In this document: positions 18,001 to 24,000 of the stretch, in pieces | Layout of the letters: every line of letters begins with the position of its first letter | Position numbering within the stretch: position 1 is the first letter of the stretch | DNA from: Ylistrum balloti | Lineage: Eukaryota | Reading direction: 5' to 3' | DNA length: 64,000 nt | Assembly: GCF_031769215.1 (NCBI RefSeq) | Contig: NW_026782124.1 | Location: 620,001 to 684,000 of the forward strand | Made by a program: the position numbers

Positions 18001-21000
18001 ATATAGAAAAGTATATGGAAGTTTTTACATAATATTTGTTTATCATAAAGTGCCTGTATACAGGTTACCGACCACTGACAATGAAGGACCAAGAAAATAT
18101 TTACGATTTTAAAAAATGGGGATAAACAAATAAATCAGTTATCTTTGTTTACTTGGCCAGCACATGTCCGATACTCTCAAAATGGTAAACAATCACTCAT
18201 TGAACTTTCAAACGAGATTTGATTCAAGCCACACGTGTAAGTGTGTAAAAATAGGTCATAGTTCTATGAACGAAAAGAGTATATTGAACGTAGAAGGTTT
18301 ACATATATGGTCAGTTGATACTTCCCTAACCCTAGCTACATGTGCCCTCCGATCTGGTGATATATGGTCAGCTGGTACTTCCCTAAGCCTAGCTACATGT
18401 GCCCTCCGATCTGGTGATATATGGTCAGTTGATACTTCCCCAACCCTAGCTACATACTGCTGTCACGTAACAGCTTTAGAAACACAAATTAAATAAACCT
18501 TGTGACCTACTTAAAGTATATTATCAGATCGGATGATATACGGTAGTGCACCTGTCTTGTGATCGTTCATCTGCACTTTTTGCACTCCGTGTTACAACAT
18601 GTGTTGGTATGCGACTAATTGTGGGGTACCGCTTGGTTGATTTCTCCGATGTCCCCTTTTTCCTGTCTTTTTTTTCTTTCTCTTTCTTCCTTTTGTTTTT
18701 CCACTCTTGGTGTCCCTCTTGACACCTGTTCCTGGCTGTTTGGAGAGCTTTAAAAACTCCGGATTTCACGCCTGTAACCCTCAGTGACCTTACCCGGAGT
18801 CGTATTTCTGTGTTACTTTATACAAGTTAATTGTTTTTATATTTATACAATAGCAATTGTGAATACAGAAAATACCAAATCTAATTTCTAGTAAGTAATT
18901 ATTCGTCCAATTTTCTCTCTAAACTCATTGTAAATGTCACTTAGTATTCAGTACACTACACTGGTATCGTGTGACGTCACATGGAAACTACATATTCGTA
19001 GATTGTACAAAAAACACATGTTGAATGACACCTTTCAGCACCAATTAATAACTAAAGCCAAATAATGAATCACTGTTCCGTCCTTCTATGACTCGTTAAT
19101 AATGATACGGGCCAAATTATCTAAATCAATGTAAAAATCAGGTTTGGGGGTATCTTAGCCCTATAATTAATATTTTTCATATATCTTATCATTTCAGTAG
19201 AACGTAATATATTTGTGTATTCTGAACCGTATGCCGGTTACGGCAAACTACGGGGACTTAAATTCCACCAACAATATCGAAGATTGTACGAGAGACATAA
19301 ATGAATAATACATTTCAGTACAATATTGCGACGAACTGATAAAGATTTTAAAACACAATCTTTTTAAATTCACTTTTACCCGATTTAAATAGTACATTTT
19401 GAATGCACTGAGAATTATTTACGGTCATCCAATATGACATCATCACACCCAATGTACTGTGTAATAAGTGTTAAACAATCTTGATAAATATATCATTTCG
19501 TATTTACGAAAAGTACGCATGCCTGCTCGGAGTCATTAATAACACACTATCCGAAGACATATGACTGTGTTCAAATGATATTGATTAAAGATAAAAGTAC
19601 GTCCCCTTCTCGGTTGTGTTGGAATTCGAAGTTTCTCATCCAGCAATTTTTCGAACCTCTTTCTAAATTATGATAATTGCAATACCACTGTGGTCGATGC
19701 AATATATTCTCAAAAGAAATTAGATAAGTTTTAAATGTTTTTCTTTGGTAGCCATGCGTCTCGGAAGTAGTGTATTGTCGTGAATTTTTGTGATTTACTT
19801 TGTTAAAAACACGTTAAAGATAACATAGAGGTAAACAACCAAATCTGAATCGTGGGAAAGTTTGATTTTCTGGTTAACATTACGCTTGAATTCTGTTTCC
19901 CAGAACATTGTTTGTCGCTAACATATATATTCCTCGATAAAAAAATCCCTTTGTTAAAAGTGTCTATTCTGTTTACATAATGCCCCGCATTTACCAGAGC
20001 TAACATAGACTGATAAGAAGAACTTCGCGTGACAATCACGCTAAATTTGAAATATATATGTGATATGCTTTATTAGCAACACAATCTACAATCGATTGCA
20101 TGTAACATCGTGAACTCCCCGTCACGAACACGTTTGTTTTACTCGTTTTCTCCAACCTCTTGCGTCCACAGGCACTCGAGGCCAGGATATTATTTTTTAA
20201 ACATTGATTTTTGTTTTAGCACTCATGACTGACGTTATTTAAACGAAATATCAGCAGAATTCAAGTTTATATGCCGGTTGACAAATCCGAGGTCCACGGT
20301 CATTAAAAATACACAAGGCAAGCAACTCCAGATTTTAAAAAATCGACCCCTCGCTTGGAAACTGGCTCAAAAAAAGTAGTTATGATAAGTTCCTTGTAAA
20401 ACAATATGTATCCGTAGGTAGTGTGTATATTTACCTTTTATTTGGTGCATAACATTACAGGCAACGAGAAATTCACAATACGTACACGAGATTAACATCT
20501 CAATAACCGGAGATTTTATCGTCCATGTAATTATCTTTGACGGAAGTAACATGCCATTTCAAGGGCGGTCACTCCGACTTTTTGGGAGAGGAGTTCCGGA
20601 TAGCACTATACCAGTGAACAGGTAAGAAAGGTTCCGATGTCATTACGCGCGTAACTTCAAAATAGATATTTTTATTTCTACAAATACATTTGCGGGGATG
20701 GAAAAATAATGGCTGGGCAAAGAAAGTCCACATTTGCCAACTCGGATACAATATCATGGTAAGGGATTATACAGAATGCATCAACTTTCAATCAAGCTGG
20801 CGGTAATGAGAATTTTTTTTTTCAAAAAAAAAAAAAAAAATAAGAAAAAAATCATGCAGATAATGAAAAAAGGGCGCAATTTATGAAAAATATCGTGGGG
20901 GAAATATATTAACTTAGAAATTGGAAATTAAATGATTTTTTCCATAGTGATTTTTGTCAACTTATTGAGAATATTTGAAAAGAGGCGCAATTTATGAAAA

Positions 21001-24000
21001 ATATCGTTCCTTAGATAAAGCCCTACACCGTTTGCAGCAAAAAAATTACATTGACCTTTATTCAAGGTCACTTTGGTCCAATGTGTTGATTTTTTAAACG
21101 ACTTATTCCGATTAACCAAAAGTCCAGGGATCATGATGTTTGTTAAAATGTTTCTTGGGTGAAGGGCAACAAAGTTTGAGAAAAGATATTACTTTGACAT
21201 TATATTCAAGGTCATGGATACACCCTTAAATAACATCTTCTAAGTTAATATATTTCCCCCACGATATTTTTCATAAATTGCGCCCTTTTTTCATTATCTG
21301 CATGATTTTTTTCTTATTTTTTTTTTTTTTTTTTGAAAAAAAAAATTCTCATTACCGCCAGCTTGATTGAAAGTTGATGCATTCTGTATAATCCCTTACC
21401 ATGATATTGTATCCGAGTTGGCAAATGTGGACTTTCTTTGCCCAGCCATTATTTTTCCATCCCCGCAAATGTATTTGTAGAAATAAAAATATCTATTTTG
21501 AAGTTACGCGCGTAATGACATCGGAACCTTTCTTACCTGTTCACTGGTATAGTGCTATCCGGAACTCCTCTCCCAAAAAGTCGGAGTGACCGCCCTTGAA
21601 ATGGCATGTTACTTCCGTCAAAGATAATTACATGGACGATAAAATCTCCGGTTATTGAGATGTTAATCTCGTGTACGTATTGTGAATTTCTCGTTGCCTG
21701 TAATGTTATGCACCAAATAAAAGGTAAATATACACACTACCTACGGATACATATTGTTTTACAAGGAACTTATCATAACTACTTTTTTTGAGCCAGTTTC
21801 CAAGCGAGGGGTCGATTTTTTAAAATCTGGAGTTGCTTGCCTTGTGTATTTTTAATGACCGTGGACCTCGGATTTGTCAACCGGCACATAAACTTGAATT
21901 CTGCTGATATTTCGTTTAAATAACGTCAATCATGAGTGCTAAAACAAAAATCAATGTTTAAAAAATAATATCCTGGCCTCGAGTGCCTGTGCTTGCGTCG
22001 GTACTTGATATACAGATTTTGTAGACAAACGTAACAATTTTTTCACCTTTGGTGAACTTTCCTTATCTACATAGTAAATGTCCTGTCCCATCCAATTCGG
22101 TATTTAATCATTTACTTCGAAAATAACGATTCTCGTTGAGGACATCGACAGTTTACAGAACAAAAATATATATACTGTTTGCTTGATTGACAAGGAGGTC
22201 GACATTTTTACTAGAATCTTTAATGAAGATCTTCTCAGGTTGACTAGAGTCTCTACCTATTTTAAAGCCGTGGTCTTACTTTGATCTTATGTTTGGTTTG
22301 CATTAAAGGTGATACTTAGTCGTTCATGACACTTGGTGACTCGTTGTGATTTTGTCCCCATGTCTGTGGAGTAAATTAATACACCAAGGTATTCGTGGAA
22401 AATTTTTAAAGATATTATCATCTTTGTATGAAAATGTCAAATCCTGTGTAAAATTTGAGGGTCAATTAAGTAATTGTTTCCCTAATTATACCGGTCTCTT
22501 GCAAGGGGAAATATTGTCACCTGTGTTGTTTTCTTTGTATGTGAATGATTTTGAAATTAACTTTATTAATGATAATTGTCCAAGTATTGAATTACAGATG
22601 CTTAACCTTTTCTTGCTAATGTATGCTGATGATATGTTTTTTTTTGCTGATAGTCCTGGTGCATTACAAAACATGTTAGATTCTTTACAAAGTTACTCTA
22701 GAAAATGGGATCTGGAAGTCAACGTTAATAAAACGAAAATCATGGTTTTTAGACACGGGGGAAATATAAGAAATAATGAAGTGTGGAAATATAATAATGA
22801 GAGCATAGAAATTGTTGACTATTTCAAATATTTGGGAATGTTTTTTAATTACAATGGTAAATTTTATAAAACCCAAAAGCATTTAGCAGACCAAGGAAGA
22901 AAGGCCTTATTTTCAATATCAGCCTCTTTAAAGAACCATTGTTTGAATCTGGAAACCCAGTGCTCTGTCTTAGATACTTATATCAGCAGCATCTTAAGCT
23001 ATGGTGCAGAAATATGGGGGTTTCACAAAGCTCCTGATGTAGAGAGAGTCCATTTGAATTTCTGCAAAAAAGTTCTTAAAGTCTGTAAATCTACATCCAA
23101 TGATTTAGTTTATTGTGAATTGGGTAGATTACCATTAATTGTTACAAGAAAGTTAAAAGTATTCAAGTATTGGTTGAAGTTGACGAAATCGGATAATTTG
23201 ATATTAAAAACTTGTTATGATGAATGTGTCAACGAGAATGATCCGTGGATTTGTAATATTAAGAATGAGTTAACTGCCCTAGGTCTTTGTTATATCTTTG
23301 AATCAAATCTACCATTTGTTAACTCTTTTAAAATTATTGAACAGAGATTGAAAGATGTTACTAAGCAAAATATGTTGGCAAAGATAGCAGCTTCTTCAAA
23401 AGGTAGACTATATCAATACCTTATTGACAGTCATTGTATTCAGTTTTATCTCCGTAAACCTATTGAATCTAAATACAAATGTATGATAACTAAATTTAGA
23501 ACGTCGTCTCATAAACTGAATATTGAAATGGGTAGACACAATAATATCATTCGCAGAAATAGGAACTGTAGCAAATGTAATTTGGGAGACATCGAGGACG
23601 AATTTCATTTCATTTTTGTATGTCCTTTTTATATTGATTTAAGGTTAAAATATATAAAGAAGTATTATCATAAGAGTCCCTCTGTTTACAAACTTGTCCA
23701 ACTATTATCTGTAAATAACATCAAAGAGTTGTCAAATCTAGGTAAATATTTGTATCTAGCCACTAAGCGACGTAATTAATTACAGCTACATGTATTTATA
23801 ACTTTTGTGCTTCTGTATTATGCTGTATTGTATGCTTATAGTCACTCTCCTATAACATATACATGTACAATATGTCATGTTTAGTCTGTACCTATAAGTC
23901 TTAAGACTTTTGGTGAATAAAGGAAAGAAAGAAAGAAAAAAAAAGTTATTCGTCAGTAATCTACGCTTGTTTGAGCTAAAGTAGTTCATGGAAATACAGT

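What the first reader, a model, noticed from the sequence alone, without database searches (positions are those of the whole stretch)
20159..21999. Very young 1.8-kb foldback transposon: about 753-bp near-identical arms, 8-bp TSD, CACAG ends
Seen: I found only two substitutions and one homopolymer-length difference between the arms; the 8-bp TSD CTTGCGTC is perfect; 83% of the element is inverted repeat; no transposase. Established: CANRG termini with 7-8-bp TSDs mark the P superfamily, and Galileo is a P-type element with long foldback TIRs. Inference: a recently mobilised Galileo-like non-autonomous family, possibly undescribed in this lineage, implying an active THAP-type transposase elsewhere. 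Read-through would give a roughly 750-bp dsRNA hairpin, and the DNA could form cruciforms.
Basis: partly seen in the sequence, partly recalled or inferred. Interest (0 to 1): 0.65.

Follow-up and report, generated by a model that had tools for sequence, protein, structure and literature searches.

The report
Long-armed non-autonomous DNA transposon insertion
A 1.8-kb mobile DNA element made almost entirely of two mirror-image 753-bp arms sits intact upstream of a lipid-phosphatase gene in an invertebrate genome; it is real and probably recent, but it is an ordinary kind of transposon whose family cannot be named from this one copy.

Summary
An 1,825-bp element (20167-21991) has arms of 753 and 754 nt. 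They differ by two transitions and one base in an A/T run. A non-palindromic 318-bp loop separates them. The tips read CACAG...CTGTG, and a perfect 8-bp duplication, CTTGCGTC, flanks the element. It is the only long inverted repeat in the 64 kb and has no coding capacity. It is therefore a genuine non-autonomous, foldback-shaped cut-and-paste transposon insertion, probably recent.

The family assignment is not established. Galileo and 1360 make 7-bp duplications, and Galileo arms are internally repetitive with several THAP sites. This element makes exactly 8 bp, has no subrepeats and shows no THAP-site signal. An 8-bp duplication also fits hAT, Zisupton and Mutator/Foldback elements. The CANRG rule could not be verified in the library.

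No other copy, autonomous partner or empty site could be sought, because no eukaryotic genome or repeat library was on hand. P superfamily is the best single guess (about 0.3). Interest is low to moderate.

The parts
20159..20166 (.). Left copy of the 8-bp target-site duplication, CTTGCGTC
   Evidence: It abuts the left tip and is one of only 2 occurrences in the window.
20167..20919 (+). Left arm (753 nt). The tip is CACAGGCACTCGAGG.
   Evidence: No tandem subrepeats apart from a T10-C-A17 run. No repeated 9-mers or longer other than one palindrome.
20643..20654 (.). 12-bp perfect palindrome TTACGCGCGTAA inside the left arm. Its mirror copy is at 21504-21515.
   Evidence: Its function is unknown.
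20920..21237 (.). Central loop (318 bp). It is unique, non-palindromic and non-coding.
   Evidence: Its score against its own reverse complement is 54, against 61 +/- 10.6 for 200 shuffles. No Pfam hit. No relatives of its 86-aa frame.
21006..21070 (+). First of two direct repeats of about 65-70 bp in the loop. It ends in TCAAGGTCA.
   Evidence: (76% over 66 nt).
21150..21214 (+). Second loop direct repeat. It ends in TCAAGGTCA.
21238..21991 (-). Right arm (754 nt), the reverse complement of the left arm
   Evidence: 2 substitutions and 1 homopolymer indel.
21992..21999 (.). Right copy of the 8-bp target-site duplication, CTTGCGTC

Best explanation
This is one intact insertion of a non-autonomous cut-and-paste (class II, TIR) DNA transposon with a foldback architecture: two 753/754-bp arms around a 318-bp non-coding loop.

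**Shown.** The arms, the tips, the exact 8-bp duplication, the absence of any coding capacity, and the thermodynamic ability of a transcript to fold.

**Inferred.**
1. A transposase encoded elsewhere bound the tips, cut the target with an 8-bp stagger at CTTGCGTC and joined the element in. Repair of the stagger produced the duplication.
2. The long arms arose when one half of an ancestral element was replaced by an inverted copy of the other, for example by template switching during gap repair or by TIR elongation. The Galileo literature describes such recruitment of inner sequence into TIRs.
3. The insertion is recent, because the arms have diverged by only 0.27%.
4. If transcribed by read-through, the element would give a long hairpin RNA that could feed RNA interference against its own family, as Mu killer does for MuDR in maize.

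**Superfamily.** This is unresolved among those that make 8-bp duplications. My estimates are P about 0.3, hAT about 0.2, Mutator/Foldback about 0.15, and Zisupton or other or undescribed for the rest. It is not a Galileo relative in any demonstrated sense.
For: - **Architecture.** Arms, loop, tips and duplication.
- **Uniqueness.** It is the only long inverted repeat in the 64 kb.
- **Flanks.** The sequences on the two sides are unrelated and unique. Blastn of 2 kb on each side finds only self-matches, one local 57-bp tandem array and a 58-nt chance-level hit.
- **No second pair of tips inside.** One search finds 2 matches in all, even with 3 mismatches allowed.
- **No coding capacity.** The longest frame is 86 aa. 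None of the 20 frames of 30 aa or more passes Pfam. None of the 144 window frames of 65 aa or more carries a transposase domain.
- **No RNA family or tRNA match**.
- **Hairpin potential.** MFE -1413.2 kcal/mol, with 751 of 753 left-arm bases paired to the right arm.
- **Literature.** Foldback shape occurs in several superfamilies and may evolve independently (PMC4079207 passages; PMC3688188 highlights). TIR extension by recruiting inner sequence is described for Galileo (PMC3573991 passages). Mu killer is an inverted duplication thought to give a hairpin RNA by read-through and to silence MuDR (PMC3440606, abstract in the listing). hpRNA loci give endo-siRNAs in flies (PMC10317233, abstract in the listing).
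Against: - **Only one copy was seen.** No second copy is in the window.
- **No trace elsewhere.** None of 8 exact ORF look-ups is in the protein collection. The 62-aa arm frame gave only 2 weak repetitive hits (E about 1e-6, 29-30% identity) among 1.84 billion representatives. The loop frame gave none. The 22-nt tip has 0 matches in the prokaryotic genome collection, which is the wrong kingdom and so is weak evidence.
- **Mobility, copy number and an autonomous partner are therefore all undemonstrated.**
- **The age argument has a gap.** It assumes no gene conversion between the arms.
- **CpG content does not help.** The arm's CpG o/e of 1.13 against 0.45 for the window is not independent evidence of youth. 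The whole 16-27 kb domain has o/e of about 0.6-1.5 apart from the LINE.
- **No transcription or small-RNA data exist for the hairpin idea.**
Confidence: 0.85

Rival explanations
1. One reading: a P-superfamily, Galileo-like non-autonomous family mobilised by a THAP-type transposase.
For: - The P element makes 8-bp duplications (PMC3698922 passages).
- The tip CACAG fits the CANRG motif.
- Galileo shows that a P-type element can have long arms.
- The third base, C, breaks the hAT motif YARNG (PMC3014272). This removes some weight from the main competitor.
Against: - Galileo and 1360 make 7-bp duplications, not 8.
- There are no internal repeats in the arms.
- The arm holds 0 THAP1-type and 0 P-type THAP site cores. 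The loose pattern occurs 3 times against 1.8 expected, and none of these lies within 500 bp of the tip.
- The CANRG rule was not found. All 6 papers holding 'canrg' and 'transposon' were listed, and judging by their titles and the starts of their abstracts none is about transposon classification. Of the 48 papers holding 'canrg', only 10 were listed.
- A curated mollusc DDE library lists 133 hAT and 39 MULE families and names no P (PMC10294476 passages). This matters only if the host is a mollusc, which is itself only weakly indicated.
Confidence: 0.3
2. A hAT-derived long-TIR element.
For: - The 8-bp duplication is the hAT hallmark (PMC3014272; PMC12730594).
- hAT is the second richest DDE superfamily in molluscs (PMC10294476).
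Against: - The tip CACAG has C at the third position, where YARNG requires a purine.
- The duplication CTTGCGTC has T at position 2 but not A at position 7 of the hAT target pattern. I recall that pattern from memory.
- As I recall, hAT TIRs are usually short.
Confidence: 0.2
3. A Mutator/Foldback-type (MULE) element, the superfamily to which most foldback elements are assigned.
For: [quoted passage not shown]
- In Tm1, 45 of 53 elements carry duplications of 8-10 bp (PMC3169594).
- Tetris has duplications of 8-9 bp.
- As I recall, long TIRs are typical of MULEs.
Against: - The modal duplication in those families is 9 bp, not 8.
- Their arms are built of short tandem repeats, which are absent here.
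- As I recall, a CA...TG tip is not typical of MULEs.
Confidence: 0.15
4. Not a transposon: an assembly artefact (a foldback chimera) or a local inverted duplication made by repair.
For: - Palindromic chimeras do occur in long-read assemblies, as I recall.
- Only one copy was seen.
- The single indel lies in a homopolymer, where sequencing errors are common.
Against: - The inverted repeat ends exactly at CA...TG tips that abut a perfect 8-bp direct repeat (chance about 1.5e-5).
- The flanks on the two sides are unrelated unique DNA.
- The loop is 318 bp of asymmetric sequence. An artefact explains none of these three features.
Confidence: 0.03
5. Two copies of a shorter element inserted head to head, or one nested inside the other.
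For: Nested transposons are common. One example is the 936-bp element inside Tm1.
Against: - There are no internal tips: only 2 matches to the 15-nt tip with up to 3 mismatches.
- There is no internal duplication.
- The inner arm ends stop at the same base in both arms.
Confidence: 0.02

Closest known systems
Galileo 'two-TIR' (2T) copies, P superfamily, Drosophilidae
   Same: Non-autonomous copies that consist of two long arms (up to about 1.2 kb) around a short middle. Cut-and-paste elements with CA-type tips.
   Different: Galileo makes 7-bp duplications, against exactly 8 bp here. Galileo arms are described as internally repetitive, with several THAP sites, and neither feature is found here. 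In the papers seen, Galileo is reported only from Drosophilidae (listing). No sequence comparison was possible.
BuT5, the MITE of a divergent P element in the Drosophila repleta group
   Same: A non-coding element of about 1 kb, mobilised in trans, with duplications of 8 or 9 bp.
   Different: BuT5 has 3-bp TIRs and 16-17-bp sub-TIRs, not 753-bp arms. Its link to the P element rests on sequence shared with an autonomous copy, which is lacking here.
Tetris (Drosophila virilis) and Tm1 (Meloidogyne): foldback elements assigned to Mutator
   Same: Foldback shape, a non-coding middle, duplications of 8-10 bp, and (for Tetris) no autonomous copy found.
   Different: Their arms are made of short tandem repeats (14-bp units in Tm1, 220-bp units in Tetris). 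Here the arms are unique complex sequence. Their modal duplication is 9 bp.
Mu killer (maize)
   Same: A long inverted duplication of transposon sequence that would give a hairpin RNA when read through from a neighbouring gene (abstract in the listing). This is the model for what the element could do.
   Different: Mu killer is a rearranged, immobile partial copy that includes transposase sequence. The element here is an intact mobile unit with both tips and a duplication, and no transcription or small-RNA data exist for it.

Membership tests
Class II TIR (cut-and-paste) transposon, non-autonomous | Terminal inverted repeats that end exactly at the element boundaries | tested here: met
Class II TIR (cut-and-paste) transposon, non-autonomous | A direct target-site duplication that abuts both tips | tested here: met
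   A perfect 8 bp. Lengths of 7 and 9 bp fail when read.
Class II TIR (cut-and-paste) transposon, non-autonomous | No transposase gene | tested here: met
Class II TIR (cut-and-paste) transposon, non-autonomous | Several copies at different sites, plus an empty site | not testable with these tools
   No eukaryotic genome or repeat library was on hand. There is no second copy and no paralogous empty site in the window.
Foldback-like elements (a structural class) | Arms make up most of the element, with a short non-coding middle | tested here: met
   82.6% of the element is arm. The loop is non-coding.
Foldback-like elements (a structural class) | Arms that are internally repetitive (tandem subrepeats) | tested here: not met
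   Tandem Repeats Finder finds only the A/T runs. No repeated 9-mers or longer other than one palindrome.
Galileo | 7-bp target-site duplication | tested here: not met
   Exactly 8 bp here. Galileo makes 7 bp.
Galileo | Several THAP-binding sites in long, repetitive arms | tested here: not met
   One search finds 0 core matches, and one search finds no repeated motif. This is a weak test, because THAP sites differ between families.
Galileo | Sequence similarity of the tips or arms to Galileo | not tested
   No Galileo sequence was available from a tool.
P superfamily | Duplication of 7-9 bp | tested here: met
   8 bp here.
P superfamily | Terminal motif CANRG | tested here: inconclusive
   CACAG fits the motif. 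The motif is recalled and was not found in the library. It matches random sequence 1 time in 128.
P superfamily | An autonomous partner that encodes a THAP plus DDE transposase | not testable with these tools
   There is no transposase domain in the window and no genome to search.
hAT | 8-bp duplication | tested here: met
hAT | Terminal motif YARNG | tested here: not met
   The third base is C. The motif comes from PMC3014272.
Mutator/Foldback (MULE) | Duplication of about 9 bp (range 8-10) | tested here: inconclusive
   8 bp lies within the reported range but is not the mode. One copy cannot give a mode.
Mutator/Foldback (MULE) | Long, composite arms built of tandem repeats | tested here: not met
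   The arms are long but not repetitive.
Zisupton / KDZ | 8-bp duplication, with CA...TG tips in relatives | tested here: met
   The match is not specific, and the transposase is not testable.

The most novel reading that the evidence does not exclude
The element is the visible tip of a currently active long-armed transposon family with an 8-bp duplication in a poorly sampled invertebrate (probably lophotrochozoan) lineage. The family would be either the first Galileo-style long-TIR branch of the P superfamily outside flies or a lineage not yet classified. Its perfect 750-bp hairpin, lying in an unmethylated domain 4.4 kb upstream of a gene, would act as a self-policing trigger for small RNAs against the family.
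Probability: 0.1. Interest if true: 0.5.

Novelty: new member of a known kind. Interest (0 to 1): 0.27.

Why it matters
If the family is active, it marks a working transposase in a lineage where few DNA transposons have been characterised. Long perfect inverted repeats are also of practical interest, because they promote ectopic recombination and inversions (as Galileo and BuT5 do in flies), can stall replication, and can seed small-RNA silencing. As it stands, this is one well-preserved example of a known architecture. It is useful as a seed for a genome-wide repeat annotation and is not a discovery in itself.

Tried and rejected
- **Nested-insertion test.** The reverse-transcriptase frame just downstream (22340-23779) might have continued upstream across the insertion and so given an in-silico empty site. 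tblastn with 6 of the 74 full-length relatives shows that the LINE starts at 22364, 5'-truncated, and does not reach the element. Flanking frames gave no RVT_1 match.
- **Paralogous empty site in the window.** None found.
- **Other copies by way of predicted proteins.** None of 8 exact ORFs is in the collection. The arm ORF gave 2 weak repetitive hits among 1.84 billion representatives. For the loop ORF, only 2 candidates shared words and none scored.
- **Tip scan of the prokaryotic genome collection.** It gave 0 hits.
- **CpG content as an independent clock.** The arm has 27 CpG against 10.8 expected at the window's ratio. The surrounding 16-27 kb is equally CpG-rich, so this was rejected as evidence of youth.
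- **Loop as a decayed continuation of the palindrome.** Rejected.
- **Arms as a SINE, tRNA or known RNA.** No Rfam matches at E of 1 or less in 19000-23000, and no tRNAs in the window.
- **THAP-site scan.** No signal.
- **Literature check of CANRG.** Not found. Two papers I recalled by PMC id are not held.
- No eukaryotic genome, Repbase or Dfam was available. Paper supplements were closed; the copy tables of the Galileo, Tm1 and Tetris papers could sharpen the duplication-length comparison.

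
Full report
**1. What is there**

- The element runs from 20167 to 21991 (1,825 bp).
- The left arm, 20167-20919 (753 nt), pairs with the right arm, 21238-21991 (754 nt). There are 2 mismatches, both transitions: 20229 C against T at 21929, and 20271 A against G at 21887.
- There is one 1-nt length difference, in an A17/A18 run that follows a T10-C.
- The gapless repeat finder (685 nt at 99% plus 119 nt at 94%) and blastn (754 columns at 99.6%) agree.
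- The arms make up 82.6% of the element, and a 318-bp loop (20920-21237) separates them.
- The tips are CACAGGCACTCGAGG and its complement. These are the only 2 matches in the window even with 3 mismatches allowed.
- The octamer CTTGCGTC abuts both tips and occurs nowhere else in the 64 kb.
- With symmetric tips, flanks of 7 or 9 bp are not identical (read), so the duplication is exactly 8 bp. The chance of this in a fixed register is about 1.5e-5.
- All 10 inverted-repeat pairs of 30 nt or more found within 8 kb anywhere in the window fall inside this element.

**2. What it is not**

It does not code for anything recognisable.
- The longest frame is 86 aa.
- None of the 20 frames of 30 aa or more from the left arm and loop reaches a Pfam cut-off.
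- None of the 144 frames of 65 aa or more in the whole window carries a transposase domain.
- There is no Rfam match at E of 1 or less in 19000-23000, and no tRNA in the window.

Its structure also excludes several alternatives.
- The arms are not built of subrepeats. Tandem Repeats Finder reports only the A/T runs. The only repeated 9-mers or longer in the arm come from one 12-bp palindrome, TTACGCGCGTAA, apart from one A/T-rich 9-mer.
- The loop is not a decayed continuation of the palindrome. Its score against its own reverse complement is 54, against 61 +/- 10.6 for shuffles.
- There is no inner pair of tips, so it is not two elements inserted head to head.
- The flanks on the two sides are unrelated unique DNA. 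Together with the tips and the duplication, this makes an assembly chimera very unlikely.

**3. Surroundings**

The window has 34.6% G+C and no N. It is not human.
- **LINE fragment.** Beginning 365 bp downstream of the right-hand duplication lies a 5'-truncated non-LTR retrotransposon. Its open frame of 479 aa runs to the stop codon (22340-23779; homology starts at 22364; RVT_1 match). It is 59-62% identical to unnamed database proteins and 49% and 40% identical to proteins of the bivalves Mytilus edulis and Mactra antiquata (74 hits among 4,799 candidates). The LINE does not extend across the insertion.
- **Neighbouring gene.** The first coding exon of a sphingosine-1-phosphate phosphatase homologue starts at about 26354 on the + strand. 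Its best relatives are only 48% identical and unnamed. The named ones are Trichoplax at 35% and Pinctada at 33%. The element therefore lies about 4.4 kb upstream of that gene's start.
- **Host.** It is an invertebrate animal. A lophotrochozoan, perhaps a mollusc, is a weak inference from the LINE relatives. No close annotated relative appeared.

**4. Age**

Arm divergence is 2 of 753, or 0.27%. If the arms were identical at insertion and have not been homogenised since, then T = K/2µ. With an assumed rate of 1e-9 to 1e-8 per site per year (my assumption, not measured), this gives roughly 0.1-1.3 million years.

The intact duplication is consistent with youth but uninformative on its own, because 8 bases survive considerable divergence.

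I tested CpG content as an independent clock and rejected it.
- The arm has 27 CpG against 10.8 expected at the window's observed/expected ratio of 0.45.
- The whole 16-27 kb domain has ratios of about 0.6-1.5, except for the LINE at 0.25-0.45.
- The ratio then falls to 0.07-0.08 from 27001 on, inside the gene.
- The element simply lies in a CpG-preserved, presumably unmethylated, domain.

**5. Mechanism**

*Shown:* the anatomy of a cut-and-paste insertion, namely exact tips, an 8-bp duplication and no transposase.

*Inferred:*
- Mobilisation in trans by a DDE-type transposase that makes 8-bp staggered cuts.
- Origin of the long arms by replacement of one half with an inverted copy of the other, or by TIR elongation. 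Recruitment of inner sequence into TIRs is documented for Galileo (PMC3573991, passages).

*Consequences:*
- A transcript through the element would fold almost perfectly. The MFE is -1413.2 kcal/mol against -384 to -406 for 5 shuffles, 751 of 753 left-arm bases pair with the right arm, and the longest uninterrupted stem is 648 bp.
- By analogy with Mu killer (abstract in the listing) and with fly hpRNA loci (abstract in the same listing), such a hairpin could feed RNA interference against the family.
- As DNA, the 318-bp spacer should damp cruciform or hairpin extrusion. This is my recollection of work on inverted Alu repeats in yeast and was not checked here.
- Nothing here shows transcription or small RNAs.

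**6. Comparison with known families**

- **Galileo.** The papers seen state that the P element makes 8-bp duplications while 1360 and Galileo make 7-bp ones (PMC3698922, passages; PMC3573991). They also state that Galileo arms are internally repetitive and carry THAP sites about 70 bp from the tip and in the tandem repeats (PMC3688188, abstract and passages). Here the duplication is exactly 8 bp, the arms have no repeats, and neither THAP-type core occurs. The loose pattern occurs 3 times against 1.8 expected, all more than 500 bp from the tip. That last test is weak, because THAP sites vary between families. The Galileo label therefore fails on a tested defining feature.
- **P superfamily.** This stays possible. 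However, the CANRG rule could not be verified. Of the 48 papers holding the string, 10 were listed. All 6 that also hold 'transposon' were listed, and by their titles and the starts of their abstracts none concerns transposon classification. The review I recalled is not held.
- **Competitors.** hAT has an 8-bp duplication and YARNG tips (PMC3014272); the tip here breaks that motif at the third base. Zisupton makes an 8-bp duplication, and CA...TG tips are reported for its relative Kyakuja (PMC12730594). [quoted passage not shown] The arms in those families are built of tandem repeats, unlike here.
- **Prior abundance.** A curated mollusc library lists 133 hAT and 39 MULE families and names no P (PMC10294476, passages). 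This bears on the priors only if the host is a mollusc.
- **My split.** P about 0.3, hAT about 0.2, Mutator/Foldback about 0.15, and the rest Zisupton, other or unclassified.

**7. Searches for relatives elsewhere, all negative**

- No second copy is in the window.
- None of 8 element ORFs is present as an exact sequence in the 15-billion protein collection.
- The 62-aa arm ORF gave 2 weak repetitive hits and none at E of 1e-10 or better among 1.84 billion representatives.
- The loop ORF gave none.
- The 22-nt tip is absent from the prokaryotic genome collection.

None of these is a fair test of copy number in the host genome, which could not be searched.

**8. Verdict**

'Galileo-like' is not supported, and 'P superfamily' is only the best of several open options. 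It is a new member of a known kind and of modest interest.

Noticed in passing
window 22340-23779 (+): A 5'-truncated non-LTR retrotransposon with an uninterrupted 479-aa frame covering the second half of the reverse transcriptase and the C-terminal region. It is 59-62% identical to unnamed proteins and 49% identical to a Mytilus edulis protein. Its CpG o/e is 0.25-0.45, although it lies in a CpG-rich domain.
   Followed up: partly
window 26354-27067 (+) and 34526-34753 (+): Exons of a sphingosine-1-phosphate phosphatase (PAP2) homologue. Exon 1 starts with a methionine that aligns near the N-terminus of the Trichoplax protein.
   Followed up: partly
window about 27000: A sharp switch in CpG observed/expected ratio, from about 0.85-1.0 in 26001-27000 to 0.07-0.08 from 27001 on. 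It lies at the end of the phosphatase gene's first exon. It looks like the boundary of a heavily methylated gene body in a mosaic-methylated invertebrate genome.
   Followed up: no
window 21062-21070, 21206-21214 and four other sites: TCAAGGTCA occurs 6 times in the window against 0.79 expected; none of 100 shuffles reaches 6. From memory, this is the extended half-site of the SF-1/FTZ-F1/ERR type of nuclear receptor. Two of the copies end the two direct repeats in the element's loop.
   Followed up: partly
window 20643-20654 and 21504-21515: A perfect 12-bp palindrome, TTACGCGCGTAA, in each arm. It is the only repeated motif of 10 nt or more in the arm and could be a protein-binding site.
   Followed up: no
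window 5721-6340, 8495-8893, 10376-10862, 13050-13390, 28254-28691, 30399-31849, 40744-41334 and others: Many short dispersed minisatellite arrays with periods of 24-155 bp. The largest has 30.7 copies of a 49-bp unit. Several are open in three frames, which explains the overlapping 'ORFs' at 8.5 kb and 10.4 kb.
   Followed up: no
window 49974-54159 (+) and 59408-61403 (-): Exons of an AAA+ ATPase gene (AAA and AAA_lid_3 domains) on the + strand, and of a CoREST-like gene (REST_helical and Myb/SANT domains) on the - strand.
   Followed up: no
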